From a virus, in the IMG/VR virus record IMGVR_UViG_3300007352_000013, positions 1 through 64,000 of that record: a stretch of DNA of 64,000 bases; one strand, given 5' to 3'. Each line of letters begins with the position of its first letter. Position 1 is the stretch's first letter. The position numbers and the translations under genes are program-made. The notes below the pieces were generated by a model. It saw only the letters and a program-made list of their open reading frames with translations, did not search any database and had not been told where the DNA came from. This document shows positions 1,604 through 40,787 of this stretch, piece after piece.

Positions 1604-2517
1604 TGCGATTGAGAATATTATTAGGAGATGTAATTATGGCCATTTTCGTGGTTTGCGACAATCATAAGATAGCCCAATTCCCACAACATACGGTAGATCC
1701 GTCGTGGAAACATCCAATTTGCACCACATTCGAGGAAGCGCAGAAGTATTGCGATGAATGGTTGGGTTATCAATTTCGCAGGGCAACACCAAAATCTACT
1801 AATGTTTCAGTTTGTTACGATGGATTCGGAAGTTACATAGAAATCGTCAAGATTGGGGAATAAAAATGCAAAATCCGCCAATTGTCAATTCAGTTTTCTT
1901 TGATTCCAAGTCTAATCCAGCAAGTCAAACAACAAGCGCCAAATTGGCACTTTAATTGTGGAAAAGTGTGGTAAAAGTGTGGAGAAATAAAATATGTCAC
2001 AGAAAATTCTTGAGGCTCAACAGGCATTTATGTATGCTGGCTACCAATGGCAAGAATCCATATTTAACGATAACTGTGAAGATAATTGCTATATTGTGTT
2101 TTCAAAGAACACAAGTCCAGTATATTTTGAACGCCATCCAGAAGGTGATTTCGCGTTTGGAAGATTTTCAAGAGAAAAGGCGTGGTCAATGGCATTGGAT
2201 TGGCTTGAAACAATTAAGTCACTAAATCGTACCACATCATTGTAAGTAAGATAATTCGGAGAAAATAATGGCAATCATTTCTGCAAGGGTCGTAAAACGT
2301 GGTAGTCGGGTCGCTGATACCAATCAGTATGAAGCAGAATTCAATGGAGAAATTCCGACCTACGACGAAGTAGCAATGGCCCAGATGAATATGCTCCACT
2401 TCCACCCTGCCGGGTACGGGATGCCGTTTGATATCAATGTATCCGAAAACAAGGTCTCTTGGAAGTCTTTCGCAAATTGCGATTGATTTTGCACTGCATT
2501 TGATGGAAGGATCAGAT

Positions 2518-2718
2518 ATGAAAATCGAACTTTTAGAAGGAAATCATTTAATCGTAGATTTGGAAGTCGGCCAAGTCGTTCTGGTCAATAATGAGGTTGT
2601 TCGGGTAGATAAAATCGTAAATGACTATTCATTTGTTGGCCAATCCTTAGAAGGAAATGGCATGGGTCGGTTCATTTCCGAAACCCCGTTCGTTCGGAAA
2701 GTGATGGTACTTGAATAG
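2518..2718 (+). CDS. Small beta-rich paralog-family protein
   Basis: MKIELLEG..IVDLEVGQVVLVNNEVVRV pattern. Confidence 0.55.
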   Translation: MKIELLEGNHLIVDLEVGQVVLVNNEVVRVDKIVNDYSFVGQSLEGNGMGRFISETPFVRKVMVLE

Positions 2719-2769
2719 AAAGGGATTATATGTGCAAGTCTTGTAACGAGCCTGTCATAGGAAAATAAT

Positions 2770-3039
2770 ATGTACAAGTGTCCATCGTGCAAAGACACAG
2801 GGTTTGTGGAATTATTCACTTCATCAAAACCCTGTCTCGATTGCAAGTTACTAAAACCCGACGAGCAAAACGATGAAAATCTGTATTGTTCCTGTTGCAA
2901 TTGTGGGGTTAACTCGATTGTAAGGCGTGGAACTTGGGGTTACAGTGATCTAAAAGAAAATGGAGAGTGTTGGGGAAAATGTGAATATTGCGGAAAAGAG
3001 GGTATTAGGTTCGTGCTGTTACCGTCAATTCCGGTATGA
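2770..3039 (+). CDS. Zn-finger protein with CxxCKDTG...PCLDC N-terminal module
   Basis: CPSCKDTGFVELFTSSKPCLDC; second CSCCNCG...CEYCG module. Confidence 0.65.
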   Translation: MYKCPSCKDTGFVELFTSSKPCLDCKLLKPDEQNDENLYCSCCNCGVNSIVRRGTWGYSDLKENGECWGKCEYCGKEGIRFVLLPSIPV

Positions 3040-22027: not shown

Positions 22028-23350
22028 GTGAGTATGAAGTTTAAGTTCATGTCTTCAATTGTTTTATTCTGCGCATTTGCTGGTAATGTATTTGCTACAT
22101 GCGTAGAAGGTGTTCAGATGAGATTTAATTCGGTACAAGTATCTGTACCGCCATCTGCAATTCAAACACTAGTTGTGCCAAACAGTACAACTATTTATGT
22201 GGACGTTGATGGTGGAATCAAATCTGGTGGTGATTGGGATTCGACAAGTATTCAGATCGACGGTTTTCCTGTTCAATGCTTCAATAATTCTGGAAATAAC
22301 GATTCTGCAAACGGGAATACATGGATAAATAGAGTAAAAACATTTACGATTACATCACCATCTGTAACTGGTATTTATGAAGTTACGGTTACAATGTATA
22401 GTAATGATAATTGTGACGGATGCGATATTGACAGGGAGCTAACACTGGGTGTTGGTCTGCTTGGTCAACAAGGTCCAACTGGCCCACAAGGCGAACCGGG
22501 GGAAAATGGGCAAGACGGTGAAGATGGTGAACAGGGTGAACCTGGCGAAGATGGAGCCGACGGCGTTGGATGTACAGTATTAGATAATAGCGATGGAACG
22601 TATACGCTTACTTGTGGATCTGATTCGCAAACAGTTACAATTAATAATGGCGAGGATGGTATTAATTGTTATGATCTTAATGAAAACGGTCAAGAAGATC
22701 TTTGTGATCCAAATGCCCTAGAAGAATTTGAATCATGCGAATCATTCTTTGCATTTTGTAATGAAACTGAAGATCTCGATGAAGTTACAGCTTCAAAATC
22801 GGGTAGAGAAATGAAGGTGTTTAGCGCAATTAAATATCGTAATGAGAGTTATTATGACTGTTCATTTACGGAAGATGTAAACGGAGACGAGACGATAGAT
22901 GTTATAGATTGTCATGGTTCAAATGGAAGTAATGGATCTGATGGTGGACAAGGACTTCCAGGAAGAGACGGGTCTTCATGTTCTGTAGTCGATAATCTGG
23001 ATGGCTCATACACTATGTCATGCGAAGATGGAACTAACGTAACTTGGCATGACGGAACTGATGGACTGGACGGAGTGGATGGAGTAGATGGTGTTGATGG
23101 AACTGACGGGCAACCCGGAGCGCCAGGAACTAACAATCCCCCGTGTTCATTAGTAGAAAATCCTGATGGTACATCCACAATTACTTGTGGTGATTTAGAA
23201 TTTGTAATAGGCGAAACAAACACTGGTGAATTTACGGTTTCAAATAGTGGTAGAATGTGCGGCTCCGCAGATGCACTTTCGCTTCTAGTCGGTGCTGGAC
23301 TTGCTGCCGCCGCTGGATTTATGCCACGAGGTTCGCGTCGCAAGTCGTAA
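22028..23350 (+). CDS. Secreted/surface collagen-like repeat protein with C-terminal anchor
   Basis: Signal peptide (..AFAGNVFA-TC), three Gly-X-Y tracts, three C.V.(D/E)N.DG..T..C repeats, DVNGDETIDVIDC motif, hydrophobic C-terminus followed by RRKS. Confidence 0.8.
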   Translation: MSMKFKFMSSIVLFCAFAGNVFATCVEGVQMRFNSVQVSVPPSAIQTLVVPNSTTIYVDVDGGIKSGGDWDSTSIQIDGFPVQCFNNSGNNDSANGNTWINRVKTFTITSPSVTGIYEVTVTMYSNDNCDGCDIDRELTLGVGLLGQQGPTGPQGEPGENGQDGEDGEQGEPGEDGADGVGCTVLDNSDGTYTLTCGSDSQTVTINNGEDGINCYDLNENGQEDLCDPNALEEFESCESFFAFCNETEDLDEVTASKSGREMKVFSAIKYRNESYYDCSFTEDVNGDETIDVIDCHGSNGSNGSDGGQGLPGRDGSSCSVVDNLDGSYTMSCEDGTNVTWHDGTDGLDGVDGVDGVDGTDGQPGAPGTNNPPCSLVENPDGTSTITCGDLEFVIGETNTGEFTVSNSGRMCGSADALSLLVGAGLAAAAGFMPRGSRRKS

Positions 23351-23372
23351 TAATTATATTAGTTTTAAAATG

Positions 23373-23400
23373 TGGGGGCGCAGAAATGCGCCCCCATTTT
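23373..23400 (+). terminator. Intrinsic terminator after the collagen-like gene
   Basis: TGGGGGCGCA-GAAA-TGCGCCCCCA followed by TTTT. Confidence 0.85.
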
Positions 23401-23638
23401 GGAGTAATTAGGAGATTATTAATGATTCAAGTAGGTTCACGAGTAGAGTTAAGATGTGTAACTAACGATAACCACGAAGCGATATATTCAACTTGTGAAA
23501 TTGTAGCAATGTCTCCGAAAACAATAGAGGTGAAATATTGCTCAAAAGTAACACAAGAAGGCGATAAATCTTTTCCTGTCTTTAAAAGAGATCTAATTAG
23601 TCGTGATAAGATTAAGTATTTGTCGGAACGTTGTTGAT

Positions 23639-24139
23639 ATGAAAACTTTAGTTATAATAGACATGCAAGATTTCTATCTTGAAGAAGGATCTATTGTTGG
23701 TTCTAAAGATTCTCTTGAGATATCAATATTAAAGTCTAATATAGTATCACTTATCCAAAAATTTATGGATAATAATTATCCAATAATTTTAGTAGAGTAC
23801 GGTGGTTCTGGAAGAACAAATAAATATATATTGGATGCGATATCTGGTTATGACAATTGTTATAATGCAACAAAATATAAATGCGACGGTAGTGCCGAAA
23901 TTATTGAAATAATCAATACCCTCAATCTTCCAAAGAACATAAATGTATGCGGTGTGTATAGTGATCAGTGCGTTAAAGACAGTGTAATAGGTTTACTCAA
24001 AAAGGATAGTTCAATAGAAATAGAATTTCATGAAGAATGTGTATGGCCATTTACTAATGATCTAAACGTAGGATATGGAATAGATCATAGGGTAAAAAGT
24101 TTGTGTTTTTCGAAAACAGGGGTGGTCCCTGTTTTCTAG
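23639..24139 (+). CDS. Isochorismatase-family cysteine hydrolase
   Basis: LVIIDMQ (Asp), KYKCDG (Lys), GVYSDQCV (Cys) catalytic triad pattern. Confidence 0.78.
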   Translation: MKTLVIIDMQDFYLEEGSIVGSKDSLEISILKSNIVSLIQKFMDNNYPIILVEYGGSGRTNKYILDAISGYDNCYNATKYKCDGSAEIIEIINTLNLPKNINVCGVYSDQCVKDSVIGLLKKDSSIEIEFHEECVWPFTNDLNVGYGIDHRVKSLCFSKTGVVPVF

Positions 24140-24162: not shown

Positions 24163-24399
24163 ATGAATAAGGTTACTTTTGTTACGAACAGTGGTGAAGG
24201 TCTTCCTCGTACCGTAGAAATTCGTGACGATGTTCTCGTCTCCGAATTCCTTTCGGTAAATTTTGAAGGCGATCTTGACGATTATCAGTTCAGTATCCGT
24301 CGAGATGGTCAATCTCATACGGCAGACATGGATGAAGTTCTTCAGAACGGGGATCGTCTAGTGGCTGCACCTCGTCGTGTCAAGGGCGAGCTTAACTAA
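24163..24399 (+). CDS. Ubiquitin-like (beta-grasp) protein with C-terminal G-ELN extension
   Basis: 78 aa; ends LQNGDRLVAAPRRVKG-ELN; strong RBS GAAGGAG; first gene before E2/JAB/E1. Confidence 0.75.
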   Translation: MNKVTFVTNSGEGLPRTVEIRDDVLVSEFLSVNFEGDLDDYQFSIRRDGQSHTADMDEVLQNGDRLVAAPRRVKGELN

Positions 24400-24415
24400 T
24401 AAAAGATGGTTGAAT

Positions 24416-24446
24416 GGGGGGTGGGTTTGAATAAAGCCCATCCCCC
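24416..24446 (+). promoter_or_regulatory. GC-rich hairpin between the Ubl and E2 genes
   Basis: GGGGGGTGGGTTT-GAATA-AAGCCCATCCCCC; T-run only ~13 nt downstream. Confidence 0.6.
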
Positions 24447-24481
24447 AAATGCTGTAGATTTTTTTAATCTAACACAAATAG

Positions 24482-25618
24482 ATGGAGAAAGTCCATATGG
24501 ATAGTAAAAAAATAATAAAAATAGCTTCTATTATTCAAAATACTTTAAAAACAGGAGATGAACATTTAGTAACTTATAATTCAGGAAGACTTACTGGACT
24601 GAATAATAAAATCAAAGATCTCCATGCACAAATAAATAAATGTCTAGAAAATGATTTTGAAGGCGCAAGAAAAAGTATAATATTACAAATAAATACCTGT
24701 ATAACAAAAGCAGAAGATTTTCTAAAAGCAGCAAAATCAAATATAAATCAAGAAACATATGTTCCATCTATTGAAGATTTAATAAATGAAATTACAGCAG
24801 TTAAAAATTCTTTTCCATCTCTAGAATTTAGAAATGGAGAATTAATTATAACGTCAGATACAATTATTTTACAGGAAATAGATTTTGGAAAATTTAAAAT
24901 CAAAATAGACTTAGAAAATTTAAAAGAAAAACCAGATAGATTCCTAAAAATAGATGCGGTTAGTCCAAATTATTCTAGTGATGGTGAATATGTTCATCCT
25001 CATATAGATAATCATATGCTTTGTTGTGGAGAGGGTTATGATATCTTAATAGATGCAGCGAGACAAGGAAGGATTGAGGATCTTTTTAAACTAGTGCTCG
25101 CGACATTAAATACTTATAATGAAGGTTTTGCGTATTGTGAATTAGAAAATTGGGAAGGAAAACATTGTTCTTCTTGCGGCGATCAATACGATGAAGATGA
25201 GGCGTTTTATTGCACTAAATGTGATAGTAATTTATGTGGTAGTTGTTCGTATCGTTGTGAAAATTGTGATGAATATTTTTGTGAAGAACATGTAAGCACA
25301 CCGTGTAGTTGTTGCGAAAAAAAATACTGTGATTATTGTAGTGATAATCATACGTCTACATGTGAAAAGTGTGATAAAACATTCTGTGATGATTGTTCGG
25401 CAATTTGTAATGAATGCGAAAATCGTTTATGTCAAGATTGCCTTGCGATATGCGATCATTGCTCTAATGAATTTTGTGTGAAATGCCTAAAGTCTTGCGA
25501 AGAATGTAAAGAAAGTATTTGCCCAGGATGCAGCTACGAATGTAGTAATTGTAATAAAAAATATTGCGAAGATTGCTACGACGAAGAATCTTGTAATTTA
25601 AACAAGGTTAAAGCTTAA
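24482..25618 (+). CDS. E2/UBC-like domain protein with N-terminal helical region and C-terminal tandem CxxC zinc repeats
   Basis: YVHPHIDNHMLCCGEG resembles the E2 HPNI..C active site; about 17 CxxC/CxxH motifs follow. Confidence 0.7.
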   Translation: MEKVHMDSKKIIKIASIIQNTLKTGDEHLVTYNSGRLTGLNNKIKDLHAQINKCLENDFEGARKSIILQINTCITKAEDFLKAAKSNINQETYVPSIEDLINEITAVKNSFPSLEFRNGELIITSDTIILQEIDFGKFKIKIDLENLKEKPDRFLKIDAVSPNYSSDGEYVHPHIDNHMLCCGEGYDILIDAARQGRIEDLFKLVLATLNTYNEGFAYCELENWEGKHCSSCGDQYDEDEAFYCTKCDSNLCGSCSYRCENCDEYFCEEHVSTPCSCCEKKYCDYCSDNHTSTCEKCDKTFCDDCSAICNECENRLCQDCLAICDHCSNEFCVKCLKSCEECKESICPGCSYECSNCNKKYCEDCYDEESCNLNKVKA

Positions 25619-26578
25619 TTGGAGAAGGCTATGGAATTTTTGAAAAAATCAATGAATAGAAGTGGGGTACTAAGATTCACGCCATATGCTTGGGCAAAAC
25701 TCGTTTTTATGAGAGATGCTGGTGATACAGAGGTTGGTGGTTATGGAATCAATGAAACGGACGACCCACTTTTGATTACCGATTTCATTTTGGTAAAGCA
25801 AAATTGTAGTGGAGTTTCTGTTGATCTTGATGAACAAGATTCTTTGGCATTCGCAGAAGAAATGACAGATAAAGGTTTTAGTCCTTGGCAATATGGGACT
25901 TGGATACACACCCATCCGGGTAATTCGCCAAATCCAAGCGAAGCGGACGAAGATAATTTCAGAGATAATTTTTCTATAGCTGATTGCTCGATATTTTTTA
26001 TCTTGGCGAAAGGAGGACAAAACTATACGAGGATGCGATATAATGTGTCGCCGGGAATAGATGTTGATATTAAATCTATTATAGACTTTCATGTTCCGTT
26101 TAGAGCGAGTGATAAAGAGTCTTGGAAAAAGGAATATGACGAAAAAGTTAATGTTAGTAAATGTGTGTATACCGGAAATATGTTCAAGAAAGAAACTGAT
26201 TTACTAGAAAGAATTTCTAGTTCAAAAAAAGACAAATCTCTTTTTGAAAGAAAAGAAGAATATGATTTTCAAGACTGGTCAACGATGTCTACTAATGACC
26301 ATGATGAAGAAGAGGATGAAAGCGCCTTCGTATTTGAAGAGGGTGATTCAATCTTTTTCTATGTAGATGATGAAGAAGAATATTATGAATTCAAAAAAGA
26401 TCTAGAAAGATTTTACGATGAAAAAGGAAAAAGAATAAGACATCCTAAAAATGAATGGATGGAGATAATAGCATCGTTTTTATCAAAACAAGATAATAAT
26501 ATAGAAGACGTTTCTGAACAATTGGAAAAAGAAATGGAGAAAGAATATGCAGACATTATTGACGGACAGAGCAATTAG
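25619..26578 (+). CDS. JAB/JAMM metallopeptidase (deubiquitinase-like) with acidic C-terminal tail
   Basis: EVGGYG...WIHTHPGNSPNPSEAD = E..HxHx7Sx2D; alternative ATG at 25631. Confidence 0.88.
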   Translation: MEKAMEFLKKSMNRSGVLRFTPYAWAKLVFMRDAGDTEVGGYGINETDDPLLITDFILVKQNCSGVSVDLDEQDSLAFAEEMTDKGFSPWQYGTWIHTHPGNSPNPSEADEDNFRDNFSIADCSIFFILAKGGQNYTRMRYNVSPGIDVDIKSIIDFHVPFRASDKESWKKEYDEKVNVSKCVYTGNMFKKETDLLERISSSKKDKSLFERKEEYDFQDWSTMSTNDHDEEEDESAFVFEEGDSIFFYVDDEEEYYEFKKDLERFYDEKGKRIRHPKNEWMEIIASFLSKQDNNIEDVSEQLEKEMEKEYADIIDGQSN

Positions 26579-27206
26579 ACAAAGAGATTTGGTTCCAGAA
26601 GAAAAACTCAAAAATACAAAAGTAACTGTTGTTGGATGTGGTGCTGGTGGAAGACAAGTTAGCCTAACACTTGCAGAAATTGGTGTTCCAGATATACAAC
26701 TTATAGATTTTGATACAGTAGAAGTCGTAAATTTGGCTACGCAAGGCTTTTTTGAAAGTCAGTTGGGCAATTTTAAAGTTGATGCAGTTGCCGAAGTGTG
26801 TAAGCAAATAAATTCAGAAATTAAAATTAAAACAGTAAGAAGCAAATTTAGACCGAATATGTTTGATGGTGGAGTGATATTCTCTTGTGTAGATTCTATG
26901 TCTGGTAGAAAACAGATTTTTGAAGAAACAGATGGCCTTAGAGATCTTTTTATAGATAGCAGAACTGCCGCTGAATACTCAAGAATTTTTGTTGTGCATG
27001 ATGACGATAGCGCCGAACATTATAAGGAAAGTCTTTATACGGATGAAGAGGCTCATCAAGAGGGTTGTACGAGTAAGATGACAATTTATTCGGCAAAGGT
27101 TTCGGCTAATCTAAGAGTAGCACAATTCGTCAAGTGGTTGAGGGGTTGTGATTTAGATAAGGAAATTGAGATTAATCTTTTAACTAATGAAATGAGGGCT
27201 ATATGA
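26547..27206 (+). CDS. ThiF/MoeB-fold E1-like activating enzyme
   Basis: RAIRQRDL, VVGCGAGG, DFDTVEVVNLATQG, FSCVDS, IDSR, C-terminal EGCT Cys. Confidence 0.9.
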   Translation: MQTLLTDRAIRQRDLVPEEKLKNTKVTVVGCGAGGRQVSLTLAEIGVPDIQLIDFDTVEVVNLATQGFFESQLGNFKVDAVAEVCKQINSEIKIKTVRSKFRPNMFDGGVIFSCVDSMSGRKQIFEETDGLRDLFIDSRTAAEYSRIFVVHDDDSAEHYKESLYTDEEAHQEGCTSKMTIYSAKVSANLRVAQFVKWLRGCDLDKEIEINLLTNEMRAI

Positions 27207-27589
27207 ATAAGATTCAGATTGAAATAATAAGAGAAATGATACATGAAAGAAGGGCTAATCTACAAGAATTAATTAATATAGAAAGAAGAAAATTAAAAAT
27301 AAAAAATGAATTATCTATTCCATCAGTACAGGCCGGAGATGGCCTTCCTTCTAGGGCACAAATAATACTTCAAAGTATTATACCTAAAATGGTAGAATAT
27401 AATGCTATAGTAGAAGAATTTAATAAGCCGATAGAAGAAAAGATACGAAAATTAGATAGAAAATACAATGCTTTATGGAGTTGCTTTGAGGGGGTAAAAG
27501 AAAAAATAATGATTAAACTTGCTTTCACTAAAAATACTATGGATGAAGTAGAGGAAATTTTGAAACTTCTTCCCTCCGGTATAGATTAA
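27203..27589 (+). CDS. Helical hypothetical protein translationally coupled to E1
   Basis: ATGA overlap with the E1 stop; coiled-coil-like composition. Confidence 0.6.
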   Translation: MNKIQIEIIREMIHERRANLQELINIERRKLKIKNELSIPSVQAGDGLPSRAQIILQSIIPKMVEYNAIVEEFNKPIEEKIRKLDRKYNALWSCFEGVKEKIMIKLAFTKNTMDEVEEILKLLPSGID

Positions 27590-27590
27590 T

Positions 27591-27884
27591 ATGATTTTAA
27601 TTTTTATAGTTTATTCAATTTGTGATTTTACAATAACATCAATGAATATAAACCATAATTCATTTTATGAATTGAATCCTATAGCACGGTATGTTATAAA
27701 TAATTATGGAATTTTTGGGTTAGCACTTTTAAAAATTATTCTATCCATTCCATTCATAATAATATATGGATTATTTCATAAAAGAATAAGTAAATGGGCT
27801 GAAATATTATGTAAAATAACTATATACTCATTAATATTATTCTGGTGTATTTGCTGGGGAAATTTTTTATGGTTAAACCTATGA
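27591..27884 (+). CDS. Small membrane protein (DUF5658-like)
   Basis: CDFTIT...FYELNPIARYV and three hydrophobic segments. Confidence 0.5.
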   Translation: MILIFIVYSICDFTITSMNINHNSFYELNPIARYVINNYGIFGLALLKIILSIPFIIIYGLFHKRISKWAEILCKITIYSLILFWCICWGNFLWLNL

Positions 27885-28368
27885 GATTGATAAGAAGATT
27901 CCATGACTTATGGTATTGGATAAAATGTCGTTTGTGGTATAAATACAATGTTTTAAAAATAAAAACTCTACCCCCAACATGGAACGATAGGGATAATATT
28001 TTAGTCCATGCAATGTTCCAGATTCTAGAAGATTTTGTGAAGAAAGAAGTAATAAATGGTAACATAGATTGGGATTACGATGAAGGGCATAGGTATACCA
28101 GAGCTAAAATGGACGAATTACTTAATTGGTTCCACAATGTCTATTTAAAATTTGATGAATTCGATGGTCTTGAATTAGACGAAATAAAATGGGAAGATAG
28201 ATTTTATCCAAAAGAAGAAGGATCTGATTTTATTGAAATGAAGCCTTCATCAGAGAATGATAGAAAATGTTATGCTATAGCACATGAAAGAGAATTACAA
28301 ATAAGAAAAGATTTGAATAAAAAATTAAAAGAAATTATTGATATTAAGGATTATTTGTGGACATAAAT

Positions 28369-29205
28369 ATGAACGATATATTAACAGAACTTATATTGCA
28401 AAACAAAATTAATCCTCCACATTGGATGGACAGTTCCACACAATATATATGTATGACTGGTTCCCATGCATATGGTTTTGCTACAGAATTTTCCGATATT
28501 GATTTATATGGGTTTTGTATTCCACCCATAGAATACCTATTACCTCATACTGCGGGTCATATAGAGGGATTTGGTAGACAGATAAATGGATTCGATCAAT
28601 TTCAGCAAGAAGGTATAGAGCATGACGGTAAAGTGTATGATGTTACGATATACAATATAGCAAAATTTTTCCAACTTTGTATGGAAAATAATCCAAATAT
28701 GATTGATTGTTTATTCGTACCAAGGGACTGTATTGTGCGGTCAACATCAATAGGCGACAATGTTTTCTTTAATAGAAGCAAGTTCCTCCATAAAGGTGCA
28801 TTTTGGAAATTTACTGGATATGCAGCAGCCCAGCTTAAGAAAATAGAAAATAAAAAACCAGAAGGTAAAAGAAAGATTATGGTAGATAAATTCGGTTTCG
28901 ATACAAAATACGCATCCCATCTATATCGTCTTGCAAATGAATGTGAACAAATTCTTACAACTGGAGATCTGAACTTAAGACAAGCATCGTCGCAGATGGT
29001 ATTGATAAGGGATGGTAAGATTCCATTAAAAGACCTAAAGGATTGGTTTGCTGAAAAGGAAGTTGAGTTAAAACAAATTTACGATAATACCGAAGTGGTT
29101 CCCCACGGACCAGATGAAGAAAAAATTAAAACATTACTTATAAAATGTATAGAAATGTATCATGGTAGACTAGAAAAATTTACATTTGGATGTAGAAATG
29201 GATAA
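28369..29205 (+). CDS. Nucleotidyltransferase, RlaP/Nuc-transf-like (Pol-beta superfamily)
   Basis: TGSHAYGFATEFSDIDLYGF, NNPNMID, FDTKYASHLYRL. Confidence 0.8.
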   Translation: MNDILTELILQNKINPPHWMDSSTQYICMTGSHAYGFATEFSDIDLYGFCIPPIEYLLPHTAGHIEGFGRQINGFDQFQQEGIEHDGKVYDVTIYNIAKFFQLCMENNPNMIDCLFVPRDCIVRSTSIGDNVFFNRSKFLHKGAFWKFTGYAAAQLKKIENKKPEGKRKIMVDKFGFDTKYASHLYRLANECEQILTTGDLNLRQASSQMVLIRDGKIPLKDLKDWFAEKEVELKQIYDNTEVVPHGPDEEKIKTLLIKCIEMYHGRLEKFTFGCRNG

Positions 29206-29764: not shown

Positions 29765-31670
29765 AATTAGGAAAAATAATGTCGAATGATGTAGCTTTGT
29801 TTATTCATAGAGCGTTAATAAATTCTGGTAAAAGATCCGAATTAATACAGAAGTATAGTGGAACAAAATCTAATTGGCAATCAACAAGCGGTGTATTAAT
29901 TACATGTTCAGATTCAGAATTATTATTAGCCATTCTCAAAGAAGCTAAAATAAATTCATCTGCCCTATCGGATACTGTTTTTGATATAAAGAGTCTTAAT
30001 CAAGACGGAATTGGATTTAATAAAATTATTTACTGAGGTTATAATATGGGTAGTAAATTAAAAGAAATTACAGTATGTAAAATATCATATAAATGCCCCA
30101 AAACAAACAAACGGTGTTTTGAAATTTTTGACGCACATAAATGCATTAATAGTAATGCGCACGTTTATTCTGTTAACTGTTATGGAGGTCATGCTTCCTA
30201 TATTAAGATTTACAAATGCAAATCGTGTGGAAAGTTTCATGAGGCAGAATTACAATGAAGGTAAACTTTAAGTGCAAAGAATGTGGCTTTAATAAGATAG
30301 AAGAAGTTATGGAGGGTGTTAGAAAATATAGTATAATTTCACACGCAGAAATGACTGATACTAATTATGTAGGATTACAATATGGAGATTGTAACGACGA
30401 AGACGGCGAATTATTACATTATCAATGTGCAGGATGCGGTAATGAAATAGAGGGTTGCTGGAATCCAGAATCTCTATATAATTATCTTAAAAAAAATAAT
30501 ATGCTGGAGAAATAAATATGTCATATATAAGATGTACAACCAATCCTGAAAAACTATACTCATGGGATGATATAGACGGAAATATATACTTTAATTGGAC
30601 AGACAGAAGAGGAAAACATAAAAAAATATCTATAGACTCAAAAGTATTTAACCAATTCATGGTTGGACTCAAAATCGTTGATGGCTATGTTATGTGTGAA
30701 CCTTTAGTATATCAAAATATATCTATAAGAGAAATATTCTATAATGCAAGTAAAAATTGTATTTGCGAAAACCCTTTGGGAAATGGTAAACAAACAAAAG
30801 ATACGATTGAAATTTTAACATGTTTGCAAATAGGAAAAGAAAAATTATTGATGTACGATGTTACTTGGAATTATTTTTATCAAAATTATTTTTATTATAA
30901 ATCAGTAAAAGAATTATTATATGATCTTATAAAGATAATCTACCATAGAACTGGTAATTGGTTATTTGATTTGAACTATTCAATTAAGGAGAAAATTTTT
31001 GGTAAAAAAACATAAAATAATAGTAATTGTGGAGGGTGGTCTGATTCAAGATATTAGCAATATTCCAAAAGATATAGAGATAGAAGTTCATGACTATGAC
31101 TGCGATTCTGAACCAGATCCAAACAATAAGCATAATAATACCAGAGAAGATAGTGACGGTGCGTACTATTGGCAATCTACTTGGGAATAAAGAAAGGAAT
31201 TATATGGATCAAGTAAAAGAACAGGCATATAAAATAGAAATTGATGAAATTAATGGTAAATTTATTATTACAGCAAATATGGGAATAGCGGGTCCAATGG
31301 CAAATCAATTAAAACATACAAGTAATAAAAGAAAAGCCGCTTCAATTCTGCGAAAATTAGGTCATGACATTTCCGAAGCAGGAGATAGACTATATGGGAA
31401 CACATCAGATGACGAAAGAAAAACTTCTATCTAACTTAAGAGACATTCTACAAAAGCTAGATTGTGAATCAGATTCTCCTTTAACAAGAGAAAAATCATT
31501 AAAACACGATGATGAAATAGAAGTTCTTATCCAGCATATAAAAATTTTAGTGCAAGATCTTTTGCATGACAATCAATCTATGAGAAATGAGATGTTTGAT
31601 ATGCAAAAGCTTCTAGAGGGAAGGGATGATACGTACCCACCAGAAACATTTATATAATGGGAAACTTAGA

Positions 31671-33221
31671 ATGGAAAATTTTAAACAGAGCCTCCAAGAC
31701 TATATACTAAGCGGCCATGCCCTTCTGTATGTTTCTACGTATGAAAAAGAAAGATGCGCTAGCGACGTACATGATCATTGTAAAGAAATAAATAAAAGAA
31801 CGTTTGTATGGTCGGTAAGTGGAAATTGGACTGATATACTAGGAAATGTTATAGAAGGTCAAGGCAATTGTTTGCCACAATATGTCATTCCGGCAATATC
31901 AAAAATGCCAGAAAATTCTGTCTTTATTCTTAAGGAATTCTGGCCATATGTCCAAAATGGTGTGTTTAATGCGTGGGATATTGTTATTTCACAAATTTGT
32001 GAAATTAAAGAACAATTAAGCCATGATGGAAAAACCATTATATTTCTTGGACCAGAGTTCGAAATTCCGAATTCGTTAAGACATGACATAACTCTAATAG
32101 ATTTCTCTCTACCTGATAAAGAACAAATAAAAAATTCTATAATGTTTATATCAGAGGGAGTAGAAACTGGCAGTGATAAAAAATTCAAAATAGATGATTC
32201 TATTATGGATGATCTAATAGTAAGTTGTCAAGGTATGACAGCTTGTGAAATAACAGACAGAGTAGCATTAGCAATTAGAAAACACAAAACCATAAATACC
32301 GATGCAATTAAAACCATTTTAAGAGAAAAAGCTTCCGTTATTAAGTCATCTGGTCTTCTAACTTATATAGAACCACCGTCTGGTGGACTAAGTAATATAG
32401 GTGGATATGAAATACTTAAAAGAACAATCCTTTTAGATAAACCATGCTTCTCTGATGAAGCGAGAGAATTTGGAATCGAAAATCCGAAAGGAATACTTGA
32501 GGTAGGAATTCCCGGATGTGGCAAGACGGAAATAAGTAAATGTATTGCTTCCGAATTTAATAGACCACTTATAGGTTTGGATGTTGGATCTATAATGTCT
32601 TCTTATGTTGGTTCTTCTGAAAACAATATGAGGCAAGCCATAAAAGTTATAGAGAGTGTAGCGCCGTGCGTTTTACAACTAGACGAAATAGAGAAGGGAT
32701 TCGGCGGACAATCAGATCTTGATGGAGGATCATCTAAACGTGTGTTCGGAACCTTCCTCAAGTGGTTAAGCGAAAGAAAAAAGCCCGTTTATGTCGTAGC
32801 AACGGCAAATGATATTTCAGGACTACCACCCGAATTTTTCCGGTCTGGCAGGTTTGATTCAGTATTCTTTTTGGATCTTCCTAACGAACAAGAAAGAAAA
32901 ACTATACTAGAAATTCATCTTAATAGAAGAAACAGGGATGCCTCGTTATTTGATTTAAATTCATTATCAGAAATGACAAAGGATTATACTGGATCTGACT
33001 TAGAACAGATTGTTAAAGTTGCTCTAAAGATTGCTTTCTGTACAGATAAAAAATTAAAACAGGATCATTTAGAAATGGCAACACAATCGGTTATTCCTTT
33101 AGCTAAGATCGAACCGATTAGAATTCAATCTATTAGGGAATGGGGTCTGAAACATGCAAAACCAGCTAATAGTCAAATAGAAAAAGTGGCAGAAAAAAGG
33201 GGTAGAAAGGTCTCTGTATGA
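31671..33221 (+). CDS. AAA+ ATPase, Ycf46-like
   Basis: Walker A GIPGCGKT, Walker B LQLDEIEKG, ATANDISGLPPEFFRSGRFDSVFFLDLP; degenerate N-terminal domain. Confidence 0.88.
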   Translation: MENFKQSLQDYILSGHALLYVSTYEKERCASDVHDHCKEINKRTFVWSVSGNWTDILGNVIEGQGNCLPQYVIPAISKMPENSVFILKEFWPYVQNGVFNAWDIVISQICEIKEQLSHDGKTIIFLGPEFEIPNSLRHDITLIDFSLPDKEQIKNSIMFISEGVETGSDKKFKIDDSIMDDLIVSCQGMTACEITDRVALAIRKHKTINTDAIKTILREKASVIKSSGLLTYIEPPSGGLSNIGGYEILKRTILLDKPCFSDEAREFGIENPKGILEVGIPGCGKTEISKCIASEFNRPLIGLDVGSIMSSYVGSSENNMRQAIKVIESVAPCVLQLDEIEKGFGGQSDLDGGSSKRVFGTFLKWLSERKKPVYVVATANDISGLPPEFFRSGRFDSVFFLDLPNEQERKTILEIHLNRRNRDASLFDLNSLSEMTKDYTGSDLEQIVKVALKIAFCTDKKLKQDHLEMATQSVIPLAKIEPIRIQSIREWGLKHAKPANSQIEKVAEKRGRKVSV

Positions 33222-33485: not shown

Positions 33486-34448
33486 ATGGATAATAGTGAG
33501 ACCATTAATTTATTTGATGTAGGCTGTCTCGTATCCCTCAAGATAGGTGCGTGGTCCGGACGACGAATGATTTCGCGTTCCGATCTAGTAAGTGTAGGAA
33601 TTGATCCATCTGCACTTCCTACAGAATTAGTAAATTATGGTAGAAAACTTCTTGTTTCAAAATCCGAAATTCAAGCCATCACCAAAACAGAACAAAGAGC
33701 AAGATATTATCTGACTCAGTATTCTGTTCCTTTCGGAATAGCTAATGCATTTTTTATTCCAAATAAATTAATACCAGATGTAGAACATAACTTAAAAGAA
33801 TACAAAAAAGAATTCTTTCAAACGGTAGATAGTTTTATAGTTAGATTTAATGATCTAAAGCAACAAGTAAAAGATAAACACCCAGAATTTTTCGAAAAAT
33901 GTCTTAAAAGATTTTATCCAGAAACACCAGAATCGTTGCGGTCACGCTTCTATTTTGACTGGCATCTCTTTAAGATTAGCGGTATAAATTCAATTGAAAA
34001 TACAACATCAGAAGAAATAAATGAAAAGAATAAAATTATCAAAGAAAAAATGCAAAAAGAAGCGAACCTATTCGTTTCAGAATACGTAGAAGGAATGCGA
34101 TCAGAAGTAATTCGGTTCTGTGATTTGATCAAGGCCAGGATTAACGGAACTCCATACGGAGAAGAATCCGAAGCCAAGAAACTCTCTCCTAAAACGCTTA
34201 CGTCATTTCGTAAATATATTGAAAAATTTAAAATGCTTAATATATTTGGCGACACCGAAATTGATACATTATTAAATCAATTTAAAGAACAATTTCTTGA
34301 TGCAGAATTTAATGGAAAAACATTAGAGAGTGGCGCTTTACAACAAGCTATTTTAAGTTCAACTTCTGTTATCAGGAAAGCGGCCTCTATGGAAAATGAA
34401 GCTACGAGTCAATTCATAAAAAGTCTGAAAAGAAAGGTCGTCATATGA
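33486..34448 (+). CDS. Conserved helical hypothetical protein (DUF3150-like)
   Basis: LKIGAWSGRR, GRKLL, FFIPN, FDWHLFKI pattern; near the AAA ATPase. Confidence 0.45.
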   Translation: MDNSETINLFDVGCLVSLKIGAWSGRRMISRSDLVSVGIDPSALPTELVNYGRKLLVSKSEIQAITKTEQRARYYLTQYSVPFGIANAFFIPNKLIPDVEHNLKEYKKEFFQTVDSFIVRFNDLKQQVKDKHPEFFEKCLKRFYPETPESLRSRFYFDWHLFKISGINSIENTTSEEINEKNKIIKEKMQKEANLFVSEYVEGMRSEVIRFCDLIKARINGTPYGEESEAKKLSPKTLTSFRKYIEKFKMLNIFGDTEIDTLLNQFKEQFLDAEFNGKTLESGALQQAILSSTSVIRKAASMENEATSQFIKSLKRKVVI

Positions 34449-35318
34449 GAATTGAAAAGACAGTAGAGTTTATTGATATGCCACATGACGCACAACAAGA
34501 ATGTTCCCAAGAAGCACACAACTATTCATACATCAGAGTTTATTTAAAGGGTCATAATGATTATTATCCAAAAACAATAAAATGGCTTTTAGAAAATGGT
34601 GCATGTTTAGAAGATAAGTCTGTATTAGTTTTAATTTCTTGGTAGAGGATTACATCGGAATGCGCCTGGAACTAACAGAAAGGATTTAAAATGAGAACTG
34701 GATGGAATATTAATACTATATTAGAATTTAAAAAAATAAATAAATGCAATGAATGTTTTGATTTAATAATAACATATTGCAGTGCACATAATTCAGACTC
34801 AAAAATGCAAATACATATTCCATCTATAAATAATAAAGATCTATCTAACATAATAGAAGAAATATATAGAATAATGGGAGAATAAATTATGAATTGGTGT
34901 ACCACAAAAGAATTAATTGAACAATTCGATGATTATTATGAAGTATTAAATAGAAAAGAAACTCAACAATCTTTAAAAGAATTTGTATTAAATAAAGAAA
35001 ATCCTCTAAAAGAAAGATTTAGAGTTTGGGAAGAATACTGTAAAAAAATAGATGATCCTTGGATTATCCATAGTGGGGAGTACGGGATTATAGGAGAAAT
35101 GATTGATAAATGTTACCCTTGTGAATATGACAGACATAGAGAATATAATTATGAAGTTTTTCTATCTTGGATAGTAGACGCTAATGAAGATGAATATGAA
35201 AGTGAATTATGGAAAGAAACAATGAAAAATACCGAACTCCCATCGGTTGATCAATTTAAAGAAATGTTAATTCAAACTAATTTTGGTAGCTTTAATATGG
35301 ATTGGTAAGGAGGAATAA

Positions 35319-35578: not shown

Positions 35579-35995
35579 ATGTCTAGTTACTGTAATGTTG
35601 AAACGCAATTTAAGAACCAAGAAGCATTAACCTTGGCTTTAATTGAAACCGGAAAATGGTCTAAAGATCAAATAGAGGTTCATTCTGAACCAAAAAACCT
35701 TTATGGTTATCATAATGATATTAGATCTGATAAAGCACATATAATAATTAGAAGAAAATATATAGGTGGATCATCTAATGATATTGGTTTTCTTAAAACA
35801 GAAGAAGGAACATATACAGCTATTATATCAGAATTCGATAAACGATCTATGGGATATAATGATAAATGGTTGGCTTCCCTGAAAGGGAACTATGCGTATC
35901 ATACTATAAAACAGCAACAAGAAAGCAGGGGTCGTATGGTAACTCGTGAACATATAGGCAATAAACAAAGAATATCTATAAAAGGATATAGATAA
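35579..35995 (+). CDS. DUF1257 (Ycf35-like) protein
   Basis: MSSYCNVETQFKNQEALTLAL, LYGY, AHIIIRR, NDIGF motifs. Confidence 0.75.
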   Translation: MSSYCNVETQFKNQEALTLALIETGKWSKDQIEVHSEPKNLYGYHNDIRSDKAHIIIRRKYIGGSSNDIGFLKTEEGTYTAIISEFDKRSMGYNDKWLASLKGNYAYHTIKQQQESRGRMVTREHIGNKQRISIKGYR

Positions 35996-40290: not shown

Positions 40291-40488
40291 ATGCTATCAA
40301 AAGAAATAATTATTGAGATTGATGAAAATGGTAATTGTTCGCTAGACGGCAAAGGTTTTATTGGTCCAGAATGTGAAAAGGCTATGGCAGAAATAGAATC
40401 GGTTCTTGGTAGAACTGTTAATAAAGTTCATAAGCCAGAATATTCTATGATTAATAGAACAAACGTTAGGAATAAAGAAAGGGCTTAA
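40291..40488 (+). CDS. DUF2997 family protein
   Basis: IIIEIDENGNCSLDGKGFIGPECEKAMAEIESVLG...KPEY. Confidence 0.75.
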   Translation: MLSKEIIIEIDENGNCSLDGKGFIGPECEKAMAEIESVLGRTVNKVHKPEYSMINRTNVRNKERA

Positions 40489-40490
40489 TA

Positions 40491-40787
40491 ATGAAAGAAT
40501 TGATCGGATATATAGGAGTAGATGCTGGTTGTGTCTGGGTGGGAGATCCGTGCTATTGTGTCACGCCAGATTGCGATAGTCATCCAGCAAAAACTTGGTC
40601 AGAATTTTGTAAAAAACTAGAAGATGGTAATTTTTTTGAAAAAGATTTTAAATCTTTCGGTAACGATAATGTTTCAGAAGGAATTGGAATATGTATCGCA
40701 ACCGCACACGGAGATGGTGAATATCCCGTTTATTTAAAAAGAAATAAGGATGGAAGACCATCTCGATTAATTATTAATCTTGAATAG
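40491..40787 (+). CDS. Conserved hypothetical protein (DUF4241-like)
   Basis: IGVDAGCVWVGDPCY...TAHGDGEYPVY. Confidence 0.5.
   Translation: MKELIGYIGVDAGCVWVGDPCYCVTPDCDSHPAKTWSEFCKKLEDGNFFEKDFKSFGNDNVSEGIGICIATAHGDGEYPVYLKRNKDGRPSRLIINLE

What the first reader, a model, noticed from the sequence alone, without database searches (positions are those of the whole stretch)
24163..27589. Phage-encoded ubiquitin-like conjugation system: Ubl - E2(+Zn repeats) - JAB - E1
Seen: four contiguous co-oriented genes. (1) A 78-aa beta-grasp-like protein ending PRRVKG-ELN, a Gly masked by a 3-residue extension. (2) A UBC-like domain with HPHI-x4-LCCG. (3) A JAMM peptidase with intact E...HTH-x7-S-x2-D. 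(4) A ThiF-fold E1 with GxGxxG, D-x-D-x-V-x3-NL and a free C-terminal Cys (EGCT). A coupled helical ORF follows. No thiamine/molybdopterin enzymes are nearby, so sulfur transfer is unlikely. Known: the bacterial anti-phage Bil system has the order Ubl-E2-JAB-E1, its JAB trims the Ubl to expose Gly, and it conjugates the Ubl to phage proteins. Inference: here the virus owns the cascade and could tag host defence proteins, tag rival phages' virion proteins, jam or reverse host Bil/CBASS-Cap2 conjugation, or regulate its own proteins. I know of no characterised phage-encoded complete cascade of this kind.
Basis: partly seen in the sequence, partly recalled or inferred. Interest (0 to 1): 0.92.

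Follow-up and report, generated by a model that had tools for sequence, protein, structure and literature searches.

The report
Phage-borne ubiquitin-like protein-tagging cassette
A large uncultured tailed phage carries a complete four-gene kit (small ubiquitin-like tag, activating enzyme, carrier enzyme fused to a zinc-finger array, trimming protease) that belongs to a big family I found described nowhere, shared with mobile elements of Planctomycetota; what it tags is unknown.

Summary
Four co-oriented, tightly packed genes at 24163-27206 encode these proteins:
- A 78-aa beta-grasp protein with an invariant Gly75 followed by a variable tail.
- A 378-aa protein made of a helical hairpin, a UBC-like core (invariant HPH-x6-Cys181) and 16 CxxC motifs.
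- A JAMM peptidase with all catalytic residues.
- A minimal 219-aa ThiF-type E1 with an invariant Cys174.

The contig is a tailed phage (tape measure, DNA polymerase, RNR, tRNAs).

The cassette is not unique to this phage. The E2 family has 1,315 clusters at 50% identity. The same four genes in the same order occur in about 110 loci, nearly all Planctomycetota and often next to recombinases. The phage copies (window plus four IMG/VR contigs of 56-168 kb) form a separate, strongly supported clade.

It meets no curated model or defining feature of Bil, Bub, CBASS Cap2/3 or PRTRC. The E2 keeps the classical HPN-type site, the E1 is single-domain, and I found no paper describing the family.

The most likely function is JAB-matured Ubl conjugation through E1 and E2 thioesters. 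The target and biological role are unknown.

A Cdc48/PAN-like AAA+, DUF3150 and DUF1257 module accompanies the cassette in all five phage-clade genomes and in 11 of 41 testable Planctomycetota loci.

This scan has already flagged the same system on other DNA.

The parts
24112..24136 (+). Terminator-like hairpin at the end of the upstream isochorismatase-like gene. It probably marks the 5' boundary of the cassette's transcription unit.
   Evidence: 11-bp stem, 5 GC pairs, followed by a T-rich tail.
24163..24399 (+). Pro-Ubl, 78 aa. Beta-grasp fold. Invariant Gly75 (24385-24387) followed by a 3-residue tail, ELN.
24415..24447 (+). Strong RNA hairpin in the 82-nt Ubl-E2 spacer. It may attenuate read-through or stabilise the transcript. 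It is not conserved in L002.
   Evidence: 14-bp stem, MFE -31.5 kcal/mol, z -5.2, 0 of 200 shuffles fold as well. The L002 spacer is only 10 nt.
24482..25165 (+). E2-like protein, N-terminal part: helical hairpin (residues 8-110) and UBC-like core (about 95-228) with H172-P173-H174 and catalytic-candidate Cys181 (25022-25024).
25166..25618 (+). C-terminal Cys array of the E2 protein: 16 CxxC motifs, including seven C-x2-C-x4-C-x2-C-x3 units. Probably a multi-zinc rod that could act as a built-in adaptor or E3-like module (inferred).
   Evidence: counts. Profile against PDB: MID1 B-box1 E 1e-3, TFIIH p44 and TRIM21 B-box. Foldseek: tandem LIM and PHD domains. Pfam Siva in 12 and ANCHR B-box in 4 of 111 members.
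25619..26578 (+). JAMM/JAB metallopeptidase, 319 aa. The catalytic domain spans about residues 18-190. The acidic C-terminal extension is not conserved outside the phage clade.
   Evidence: Pfam Prok-JAB 22.8 bits, just under the cut-off of 25. PADLOC JAB E 8.5e-6. Best PDB sequence hit is the Caldiarchaeum Rpn11-like protein 6fjv, E 0.066. E38, H97, H99, S107 and D110 are at least 97% conserved in 87 sequences.
26547..27206 (+). Minimal single-domain ThiF-type E1, 219 aa, with an intact adenylation site and invariant Cys174 (27066-27068).
   Evidence: Pfam ThiF 94.6 bits. PDB sequence hits to MccB, MoeB, ThiF, UBA5 and UBA1. R8, R11, Q12, G30, G32, G35, R36, D54, D56, V58, N62, Q66, K77, D116, R121 and C174 are at least 97% conserved in 68 sequences.
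27203..27589 (+). Translationally coupled 128-aa helical protein. It is lineage-specific (window and L002 only), so it is not a core part.
   Evidence: No significant family match.
27591..27884 (+). 97-aa DUF5658 membrane protein. Lineage-specific (window and L002 only).
   Evidence: Pfam DUF5658 E 7.4e-10.
31626..33221 (+). Classic-clade AAA+ ATPase (Cdc48/PAN/FtsH-like), a candidate partner of the cassette.
   Evidence: PF00004 E 2.2e-25. NCBIfam CDC48 and PAN subfamily hits, below their cut-offs. It matches all 17 AAA+ genes upstream of Planctomycetota cassettes, best E 9.5e-59. It is present at 51-68% identity in all four other phage-clade contigs.
33486..34448 (+). DUF3150 protein, a candidate partner.
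   Evidence: PF11348 E 2.2e-20. It matches 14 of 25 members of the commonest flanking family in Planctomycetota loci. Present in all four other phage-clade contigs.
35579..35995 (+). DUF1257 protein, a candidate partner.
   Evidence: PF06868 E 3.2e-10. DUF1257 recurs upstream of Planctomycetota cassettes. Present in all four other phage-clade contigs.
40291..40488 (+). DUF2997 protein. Listed because an earlier scan note groups it with the AAA+/DUF1257 module.
   Evidence: PF11211 E 3.3e-8. Its link to the cassette was not tested beyond the window.

Best explanation
This is a self-contained ubiquitin-like protein conjugation cascade encoded by a tailed phage. The proposed mechanism has five steps.
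1. The 78-aa beta-grasp protein is made as a precursor whose reactive Gly75 is capped by ELN. The JAMM peptidase removes the cap (inferred).
2. The minimal ThiF-type E1, probably a homodimer like MoeB and ThiF, adenylates Gly75 with ATP and takes the Ubl onto Cys174 as a thioester (inferred from conserved residues).
3. The Ubl passes to Cys181 of the E2-like core, next to the HPH motif (inferred).
4. The E2 transfers it to a lysine of a target. The fused multi-zinc Cys array, and perhaps the N-terminal helical hairpin, provide target or E1 binding in place of a separate E3 (inferred).
5. The JAB can also remove the tag again (inferred by analogy with Rpn11, BilC and Cap3).

Shown here: the folds, the catalytic residue sets and their conservation, the gene order, and the phage carrier. 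Not shown: any chemistry, or the target.

The cassette rides on phages and integrative elements, so the most probable role lies in conflict between host and mobile element, or between mobile elements. It could tag host or rival-element proteins, or control the element's own proteins.
For: - Ubl: beta-grasp model with pLDDT 88. Best matches are MoaD, RnfH, SAMP1, ubiquitin, SUMO and BubA. Gly75 is invariant and followed by variable tails of 1-17 residues, never zero, in the 35 sequences parsed.
- JAB: E38, H97, H99, S107 and D110 are conserved.
- E1: ThiF at 94.6 bits, with the full adenylation motif set and Cys174 conserved.
- Synteny: the same four genes in the same order occur in about 110 loci across a deep viral/Planctomycetota split. 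This argues for one functional unit under selection.
- No MoaE, ThiG or rhodanese in the phage record.
- Phage identity.
Against: - No curated E2 family (Pfam, NCBIfam, PADLOC) recognises the E2 in any of the 111 members.
- The motif is HPH, not HPN, and the effect of that change on isopeptide formation is unknown.
- The E1 is only 219 aa and has no separate Cys domain or ubiquitin-fold domain, so how it would dock an E2 is unexplained.
- ThiF-type E1 plus JAB plus a beta-grasp protein also describes sulfur-carrier systems such as CysO/Mec+ and QbsE/QbsD.
- There is no experimental evidence for any member of this family.
Confidence: 0.72

Rival explanations
1. Sulfur-carrier system. The beta-grasp protein is trimmed by the JAB, as CysO is by Mec+ and QbsE by QbsD. 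The E1 adenylates it, and it is converted to a thiocarboxylate that donates sulfur to a small molecule or tRNA. The Cys-rich 'E2' would act as a persulfide relay or metal/Fe-S protein rather than a conjugating enzyme.
For: The best structural matches of the Ubl are MoaD, RnfH and SAMP1. The best named sequence matches of the E1 are ThiF, MoeB and MccB. JAB-trimmed sulfur carriers are an established class (Iyer 2006, table rows 4a-4e). The E1 is as small as ThiF or MoeB.
Against: No MoaE, ThiG or rhodanese in the phage record, and no sulfur-metabolism gene recurs next to the cassette in about 110 loci. The E1 has no rhodanese fusion. The family carries an invariant HPH-x6-Cys in a UBC-like fold that aligns with the catalytic site of canonical E2s. 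The C-terminus is a single Gly followed by Ala, not the Gly-Gly typical of sulfur carriers (the typical Gly-Gly is from my own knowledge).
Confidence: 0.08
2. Role variant A: an exclusion or defence module carried by mobile elements, working like Bil. The element or phage tags structural or replication proteins of competing phages, or of superinfecting copies, to block their assembly.
For: Bil has the same gene order and tags a phage tail protein. The Planctomycetota copies sit beside serine and tyrosine recombinases and are patchy and multi-copy: 13 of 301 genomes, up to 6 copies. That is the distribution typical of defence cargo on mobile elements.
Against: No known defence genes were identified among the recurrent neighbours. 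No PADLOC system model fits beyond the generic E1 and JAB domains. The viral clade lies in large phages with a lytic-style gene set, and I saw no integrase near the cassette in the window. Nothing was tested.
Confidence: 0.3
3. Role variant B: a host-takeover or counter-defence tool. The phage tags host proteins such as defence factors or proteases to inactivate or relocate them, or it interferes with host Ubl-type defences.
For: The cassette lies among early or auxiliary-type genes (NAD salvage, RNA repair, nucleotide metabolism), not among structural genes. The viral copies form an old, separate clade kept in phages of 56-168 kb, so the phage itself seems to benefit.
Against: There is no evidence on targets. 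The same cassette on non-viral integrative elements would need another explanation. The host is not identified.
Confidence: 0.3
4. The E2-like protein is a non-catalytic UEV-like scaffold. The E1 alone conjugates the Ubl, in the E2-independent manner of SAMP/UbaA or Urm1. Alternatively, the cassette is a decaying relic in this phage.
For: The best structural match of the core is the catalytically dead UEV domain of TSG101. No E2 family model matches.
Against: Cys181 and the HPH motif are invariant in 111 sequences sharing only about 23-36% identity with the window's E2. That is hard to explain for a dead scaffold. All four genes are intact, with complete catalytic sets, in the window and in relatives that are only 34-75% identical, so it is not a relic.
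Confidence: 0.07

Closest known systems
BilABCD (bacterial ISG15-like) systems, types I and II (Iyer 2006 classes 6d and 6c; Hor et al. and Chambers et al. 2023-24)
   Same: Same four functions in the same gene order, Ubl-E2-JAB-E1. The Ubl carries a conserved Gly followed by a short non-conserved tail that the JAB must remove (type II: up to nine residues). It is carried on mobile or defence-type loci.
   Different: BilD is a multidomain E1 with inactive and active adenylation domains and an inserted Cys domain. Here the E1 is a single 219-aa domain. Class 6d (Bil-type) E2s lack the classical His before the Cys and instead have a conserved His after it. Here a classical HPH-x6-C is invariant. 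No Cys-array fusion is described for Bil E2s. The only sequence-level matches to curated defence models are generic E1 and JAB domain hits. Here a virus is the carrier.
Caldiarchaeum-type Ub/E1/E2/small-RING/Rpn11 operons, also reported in some Planctomycetes, Actinobacteria and Acidobacteria (Nunoura 2011; Burroughs, Iyer and Aravind 2011; Hennell James 2017)
   Same: A classical HPN-type E2 active site. An Rpn11-like JAMM, which is the best PDB sequence hit of this JAB (6fjv). A ubiquitin-like beta-grasp tag (6fj7 is among the top Foldseek hits). A zinc-binding module of the RING/B-box kind accompanies the E2.
   Different: In those operons the E2 is a plain UQ_con protein that passes Pfam's cut-off (38 of 301 Planctomycetota genomes). 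The E2 here does not. There the zinc module is a separate small RING protein, whereas here it is a 16-CxxC array fused to the E2. Those E1s are larger and eukaryote-like. I could not read Burroughs 2011, so I cannot exclude that it mentions this architecture.
Type II CBASS Cap2/Cap3 and Bub (6E/DUF6527) systems
   Different: Cap2 is an E2-E1 fusion that conjugates a CD-NTase, not a Ubl. Bub systems use fusions (Ubl-E2, JAB-E1 or E2-E1) plus a DUF6527 protease. Here all four are separate genes, with no CD-NTase and no DUF6527. NCBIfam Cap3 scores 20 bits against a cut-off of 200, and 6A-MBL cap2_3 scores 37 against 320.
JAB-trimmed sulfur carriers and E2-independent modifiers (CysO/Mec+, QbsE/QbsD, SAMP/UbaA)
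   Same: A small beta-grasp protein, a ThiF-size E1 and a JAMM that exposes the C-terminal Gly. The Ubl model is closest to MoaD and SAMP1.
   Different: Those systems have no E2-like protein and sit with sulfur or cofactor enzymes or rhodanese. None of these is found here.
JAB-like plus ThiF block of crAss-like and Flavobacterium FpV phages
   Same: Deposited phages that carry a small ThiF about 31% identical to this E1, directly downstream of a protein with an N-terminal Prok-JAB-like region.
   Different: The protein upstream of that JAB (about 426 aa) shows no relation to this E2 (hhalign probability 0.2%). No Ubl was identified there. None of the 50,697 deposited phage records has a match to this E2.

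Membership tests
Ubiquitin-like beta-grasp modifiers | Beta-grasp (bb-a-bb-b) fold | tested here: met
Ubiquitin-like beta-grasp modifiers | Conserved C-terminal Gly on a flexible tail as the site of activation | tested here: met
   G75 is invariant in 35 sequences. It is followed by 1-17 variable residues. Model residues 75-78 are disordered.
E2 / UBC superfamily | UBC fold: helix, four-strand meander, active-site loop, crossover helices | tested here: met
E2 / UBC superfamily | HPN-type motif followed at about 7 residues by the catalytic Cys | tested here: met
   H172-P173-H174-x6-C181 is invariant in 111 sequences. hhalign places it on HPN...C of UQ_con proteins (P 1.4e-4). The third residue is His, not Asn.
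E2 / UBC superfamily | Match to a curated E2 model (Pfam UQ_con or Prok-E2_A-E) above its cut-off | tested here: not met
   No E2 family matches at E <= 1 in any of the 111 members. NCBIfam and PADLOC also give none.
JAMM/JAB metallopeptidases | E ... HxH-x7-S-x2-D catalytic motif | tested here: met
   E38, H97, H99, S107 and D110 are present and at least 97% conserved in 87 sequences.
JAMM/JAB metallopeptidases | Pfam Prok-JAB gathering score | tested here: not met
   22.8 bits against a cut-off of 25. PADLOC JAB models reach E 8.5e-6.
E1 / ThiF-MoeB adenylating enzymes | ThiF Rossmann domain above the Pfam cut-off, with GxGxxG, the Arg finger and the Mg/ATP Asp | tested here: met
   94.6 bits against 28.1. 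R8, R11, G30, G32, G35, D54, D56, D116 and R121 are conserved.
E1 / ThiF-MoeB adenylating enzymes | Catalytic Cys able to form an E1~Ubl thioester | tested here: inconclusive
   Cys174 is at least 97% conserved in 68 sequences. It lies where the ThiF alignment (query 17-202 to chain 22-213) would place the crossover-loop Cys. I did not verify the residue-level alignment or the structure.
BilABCD (types I and II) | Gene order Ubl-E2-JAB-E1 | tested here: met
   compare.
BilABCD (types I and II) | Multidomain E1 (inactive and active adenylation domains plus an inserted Cys domain) | tested here: not met
   The E1 is 219 aa with one ThiF domain covering residues 18-204.
BilABCD (types I and II) | E2 without the classical His before the Cys, and with a conserved His after it | tested here: not met
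   HPH before Cys181 is invariant.
PRTRC system (NCBIfam TIGR03736 and partners) | ThiF-family protein above the PRTRC_ThiF cut-off | tested here: not met
   34.1 bits against a cut-off of 144.75. No PRTRC model matches the other proteins.
Type II CBASS Cap2/Cap3 | E2-E1 fusion, Cap3 isopeptidase and an adjacent CD-NTase | tested here: not met
   E2 and E1 are separate genes. Cap3 scores 20.3 bits against a cut-off of 200. No nucleotidyltransferase lies inside the cassette; the nearest, the RlaP-family gene at 28357-29205, is an RNA-repair type.

The most novel reading that the evidence does not exclude
The Ubl cascade works together with the neighbouring classic-clade AAA+ ATPase (Cdc48/PAN-like) and its DUF3150, DUF1257 and DUF2997 partners as a virus- and mobile-element-borne 'tag-and-unfold' machine. 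The E1 and E2-Zn would mark chosen host or rival proteins with the Ubl. The AAA+ would recognise the mark and unfold or extract the protein. The Rpn11-like JAB would recycle the tag. That is the logic of the proteasome lid and base without a dedicated protease, owned by a phage.

Support so far is contextual only. The AAA+, DUF3150 and DUF1257 genes accompany the cassette in 5 of 5 phage-clade genomes (about 4 kb downstream in the window and in L002). They lie directly upstream of it in 11 of 41 Planctomycetota loci with enough flank, on the other side of a deep split in the family tree.
Probability: 0.15. Interest if true: 0.9.

Novelty: new variant of a known kind. Interest (0 to 1): 0.8.

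Why it matters
Ubiquitin-like conjugation in bacteria has so far been characterised as a host weapon against phages (Bil, type II CBASS) or left uncharacterised (Bub, RING-type operons).

Here a complete cascade sits in a clade of large tailed phages. It has an architecture of its own: a classical HPN-type E2 site fused to a long multi-zinc array, and the smallest E1 that could still do the job. It belongs to a family of more than a thousand sequence clusters that no curated database names.

If it conjugates, it would be the first viral Ubl-tagging system in prokaryotes. That would open direct tests of what a virus gains by tagging proteins: counter-defence, exclusion of rivals, or control of its own proteins.

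The E2 with a built-in zinc array and no separate E3 gene also bears on how E2-E3 cooperation arose. The minimal E1 bears on how little is needed for E1-to-E2 transfer.

The recurrent company of a Cdc48/PAN-like AAA+ raises the testable possibility of tag-dependent unfolding outside archaea and eukaryotes.

Tried and rejected
1. Single-sequence searches of the Ubl and E2 against Pfam, PHROGs, PADLOC, NCBIfam and PDB sequences gave nothing useful.
2. The word-index homologue search with the Ubl found only one near-identical protein.
3. The search for related loci with the E2 alone found nothing in viral contigs. I replaced it with degenerate DNA-pattern scans.
4. Fold searches with the whole E2 model were swamped by the N-terminal helical hairpin (pdb_via_wide) or the zinc array (Foldseek PDB and BFVD). 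E2-type hits appear only at moderate scores.
5. The ESM Atlas gave no usable hit for the E2 core.
6. The pattern-scan hits L010-L012, L032, L049, L050 and L095 carry no cassette and are chance matches.
7. I rejected Bil, PRTRC and Cap2/3 membership (see Membership tests).
8. I rejected the idea that the crAss/FpV block is the same cassette.
9. I rejected the helical ORF (27203-27589) and the DUF5658 gene as core parts, because they occur only in the closest relative.
10. Pfam Terminase_6N and HK97-type capsid were not found in the record. The viral nature rests on the tape-measure protein, DNA polymerase, RNR, tRNAs and IMG/VR's classification.
11. Burroughs et al. 2011 could not be read.
12. 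The sigma-70 promoter scan gave fewer sites than shuffles and is uninformative.

Full report
WHAT IS THERE

The window is the first 64 kb of a 129,435-bp IMG/VR virus record estimated to be 77% complete. Nearly all genes are on the + strand and GC is about 31%. There are five scattered tRNAs. The window also holds phage-type NAD salvage, RNA ligase, DNA ligase and thymidylate synthase genes. The rest of the contig encodes a 1,586-aa tail tape-measure protein, a split DNA polymerase and a ribonucleotide reductase. It is a large tailed phage, and the host is not identified.

They are preceded by a terminator-like hairpin at 24112-24136. The E2 stop abuts the JAB start, JAB and E1 overlap by 32 nt, and E1 overlaps the next ORF by 4 nt.

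THE FOUR PROTEINS

Ubl (24163-24399, 78 aa). Single-sequence searches found nothing. I collected the small genes upstream of E2 homologues in more than 100 loci. They form one family of about 73 aa, with consensus ...DYLIRVNRQPV...GDRVSITPTKIEGA.
- Gly75 is invariant in a 35-sequence alignment. The next residue is usually Ala (Glu in the window's closest relatives).
- The tail after the Gly is 1-17 residues long, with no conservation, and is never absent in the 35 sequences parsed.
- The AlphaFold model (pLDDT 88.1) is bb-a-bb-b with a disordered end from residue 75.
So the finding's own refutation criterion, 'not beta-grasp', is not met.

E2-like protein (24482-25618, 378 aa). An exhaustive HMMER search with residues 1-235 found 1,315 clusters at 50% identity with E <= 1e-3, of which 818 have E <= 1e-10. 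Most are 330-400 aa.
- In a 111-sequence alignment sharing about 23-36% identity with the window's E2, residues G136, H172, P173, C181, G183, Y212 and W224 are invariant and H174 nearly so.
- The model (pLDDT 92.8) has a long helical hairpin (8-110) and an alpha/beta core: helix, four-strand meander, a loop carrying HPH, Cys181, then two helices. A C-terminal array of small hairpins follows.
- As an independent test I fetched bona fide UQ_con (PF00179) proteins, which occur in 38 of 301 sampled Planctomycetota genomes, and ran hhalign against the E2 core. It aligned 70 columns with P 1.4e-4 (probability 53%), with HPH on HPN and Cys181 on the catalytic Cys. The local patterns are alike: FHPNI-x4-[IV]C-x-GD against THPHV-x4-LC-x-GDG.
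- No curated E2 model recognises any family member.
I rate the E2 assignment as well supported but not proven.

Cys array (residues 229-365). It has 16 CxxC motifs, seven of them as C-x2-C-x4-C-x2-C-x3 units. It gives weak profile hits to B-box and RING-like binuclear zinc domains: MID1 B-box1 at E 1e-3, TFIIH p44 and TRIM21. It also hits Pfam Siva and ANCHR B-box and resembles tandem LIM and PHD fingers in structure. Most family members have about 10 CxxC, and the phage clade has more. An adaptor or E3-like role is inference only.

JAB (25619-26578, 319 aa). Pfam Prok-JAB scores 22.8 bits, just under the cut-off. PADLOC JAB models reach E 8.5e-6. The best PDB sequence hit is the Caldiarchaeum Rpn11-like protein. 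E38, H97, H99, S107 and D110 are at least 97% conserved in 87 sequences. The acidic C-terminal third is specific to the phage clade.

E1 (26547-27206, 219 aa). ThiF scores 94.6 bits. The Arg finger, GxGxxGR, DxDxV...N...Q, K77, D116 and R121 are all conserved, and so is Cys174. There is no room for an inserted Cys domain, a ubiquitin-fold domain or a rhodanese domain.

DISTRIBUTION

Nearly all are Planctomycetota: Pirellulales, Planctomycetaceae and Phycisphaerae. It also hit 8 viral contigs.

phmmer with the window's proteins showed the same Ubl-E2Zn-JAB-E1 order in about 110 of these loci. In an even sample of the phylum, 13 of 301 genomes have the E2, with up to six copies in one genome.

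Recurrent neighbours are large serine recombinases, tyrosine integrases, DUF2958 and others. This points to cargo of integrative mobile elements.

A JAB tree splits with SH-aLRT 100 into two groups:
- a viral clade: the window, L002 (97.7 kb), L008 (81.7 kb), L013 (167.6 kb, rated complete), L014 (55.9 kb) and one metagenome contig;
- a Planctomycetota clade of 79 rows, which includes one IMG/VR contig, L009.
This is the quick tree; the careful search did not finish.

Window-to-L002 identities are 68% (Ubl), 34% (E2), 51% (JAB) and 75% (E1). Identities to a Planctomycetota-type cassette (L007) are 27%, 29%, 41% and 48%. The phage version is therefore an old lineage of its own, not a recent capture. 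None of the 50,697 deposited phage genomes has the E2.

The pattern scan is biased towards the THPH form, so the counts are lower bounds. A second scan tuned to the phage-clade signature found only L008 and the L002 contig.

A RECURRING PARTNER MODULE

Following a lead from an earlier scan note, I tested the genes at 31.6-40.5 kb. They are a classic-clade AAA+ (PF00004; the nearest NCBIfam models are CDC48 and PAN), DUF3150, DUF7020, DUF1257 and DUF2997.
- The AAA+ matches all 17 AAA+ genes that lie upstream of Planctomycetota cassettes, best E 9.5e-59.
- The DUF3150 protein matches 14 of 25 members of the commonest flanking family.
- The typical 'type A' order there is c4-DUF1257-c6-AAA+-DUF3150-like-Ubl-E2-JAB-E1. 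A 'type B' context has DUF2958 and a repeated unknown gene instead.
- Of 41 genome loci with at least 4.5 kb upstream, 11 are type A, 7 are type B and 23 are neither.
- All four other phage-clade contigs carry the AAA+ (51-68% identical), DUF3150 and DUF1257. In L002 they lie in the same order and about 4 kb downstream, as in the window.
The association is recurrent across the deep split but not obligatory.

MECHANISM AND RIVALS

The best-supported reading is a true conjugation cascade: JAB maturation of the pro-Ubl, adenylation and thioester formation on E1 Cys174, transfer to E2 Cys181, then transfer to a target Lys helped by the zinc array, with JAB able to reverse it. All chemical steps are inferred from conserved residues and from analogy with Bil.

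The main rival is a JAB-trimmed sulfur carrier. It is weakened by three things: the invariant UBC-type active site, the absence of MoaE, ThiG or rhodanese in the phage, and the lack of sulfur enzymes among the recurrent neighbours.

The biological role is open. Exclusion of rivals (Bil-like) and host takeover or counter-defence are about equally plausible. A tag-and-unfold partnership with the AAA+ is the most novel reading that the evidence does not exclude.

COMPARISON WITH KNOWN SYSTEMS

It works like Bil (same order, masked Gly) but fails Bil's defining E1 and E2 features. Its E2 site and JAB are closer to the Caldiarchaeum-type Ub/E1/E2/RING/Rpn11 operons. There, however, the E2 is a plain UQ_con protein and the RING is a separate protein. 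It is below the cut-off for the PRTRC, Cap3, 6A-MBL and SAMP-E1 models. Iyer 2006 classes 6a-6e do not list this architecture.

Searches of the held literature, including the Aravind group's jumbo-phage survey, found no phage-encoded complete cascade and no description of this family. An Asgard-virus preprint reports only viral E1 homologues. I could not read Burroughs et al. 2011.

This scan has flagged the same system before on other phage genomes and Planctomycetota elements, with concordant readings.

VERDICT

This is a real, conserved feature, and its carrier is a phage. It is a new architectural variant of the known kind 'prokaryotic Ubl-E1-E2-JAB conjugation system'. Function and target are untested.

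Noticed in passing
window 24415-24447: A strong 14-bp GC-rich hairpin (-31.5 kcal/mol, z -5.2) sits in the 82-nt Ubl-E2 spacer, followed by a second small stem with a T-run. It could attenuate read-through so that the Ubl is made in excess of the enzymes. It is absent in L002, whose spacer is 10 nt.
   Followed up: partly
L136 (crAss-like phage cr111_1, MT774387.1) 1433-4663; L137 (Flavobacterium phage FpV4, NC_041872.1) 1608-4678: 82 deposited phages (crAss-like, Flavobacterium FpV, Xanthomonas and others) have a small ThiF about 31% identical to this E1. In the two records examined the block is an unknown protein of about 426 aa, then a protein of about 415 aa with a weak N-terminal Prok-JAB match, then ThiF. 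The block is annotated only as 'thiamine biosynthesis protein' and 'metalloprotease'. It may be another uncharacterised phage E1/JAB system.
   Followed up: partly
G001 (Planctomicrobium sp. SH661 chromosome) 3527210-3528214 (+) and 3553258-3554274 (-): Two E2-Zn copies lie about 25 kb apart in opposite orientation in a complete genome. They may be two elements or the two ends of one.
   Followed up: no
G226:C70, G226:C71, G288:C3, G303:C26 and G104:C13: Several Planctomycetota E2-Zn copies have a single in-frame TGA inside an otherwise full-length match. These could be pseudogenes, sequencing errors or recoding. Not examined.
   Followed up: no
window 22028-24139; L002 1445-3622; L003-L006; L014 1-312: In the phage clade the cassette is preceded by a secreted collagen-repeat protein, a small 71-aa protein and an isochorismatase-family hydrolase. 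The first three relatives share all of these, and L014 shares at least the hydrolase. Any link to the cassette is unknown.
   Followed up: partly
L159:14878-17193 and L160:10890-12644 (contig 78878-81193 and 94890-96644): The phage DNA polymerase (phrog_405) is encoded as two separate ORFs about 14 kb apart. One covers profile positions 42-447 and the other 611-1069.
   Followed up: no
BFVD entry A0A6J7X5D3 and others: Similar Cys-repeat arrays occur in other viral proteins, including a protein named 'amidoligase enzyme' from an uncultured Caudovirales phage and many giant-virus proteins. The zinc array may therefore be a portable module attached to different ligase-type enzymes.
   Followed up: no
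Planctomycetota genomes, L138-L157: 38 of 301 sampled Planctomycetota genomes carry a bona fide UQ_con (PF00179) E2. Some are embedded in long ORFs of up to 600-1,000 aa. These are separate from the E2-Zn family.
   Followed up: no
window 34889-35308 and 40491-40787: DUF7020 and DUF4241-like genes are interleaved with the AAA+/DUF3150/DUF1257/DUF2997 set.
   Followed up: no
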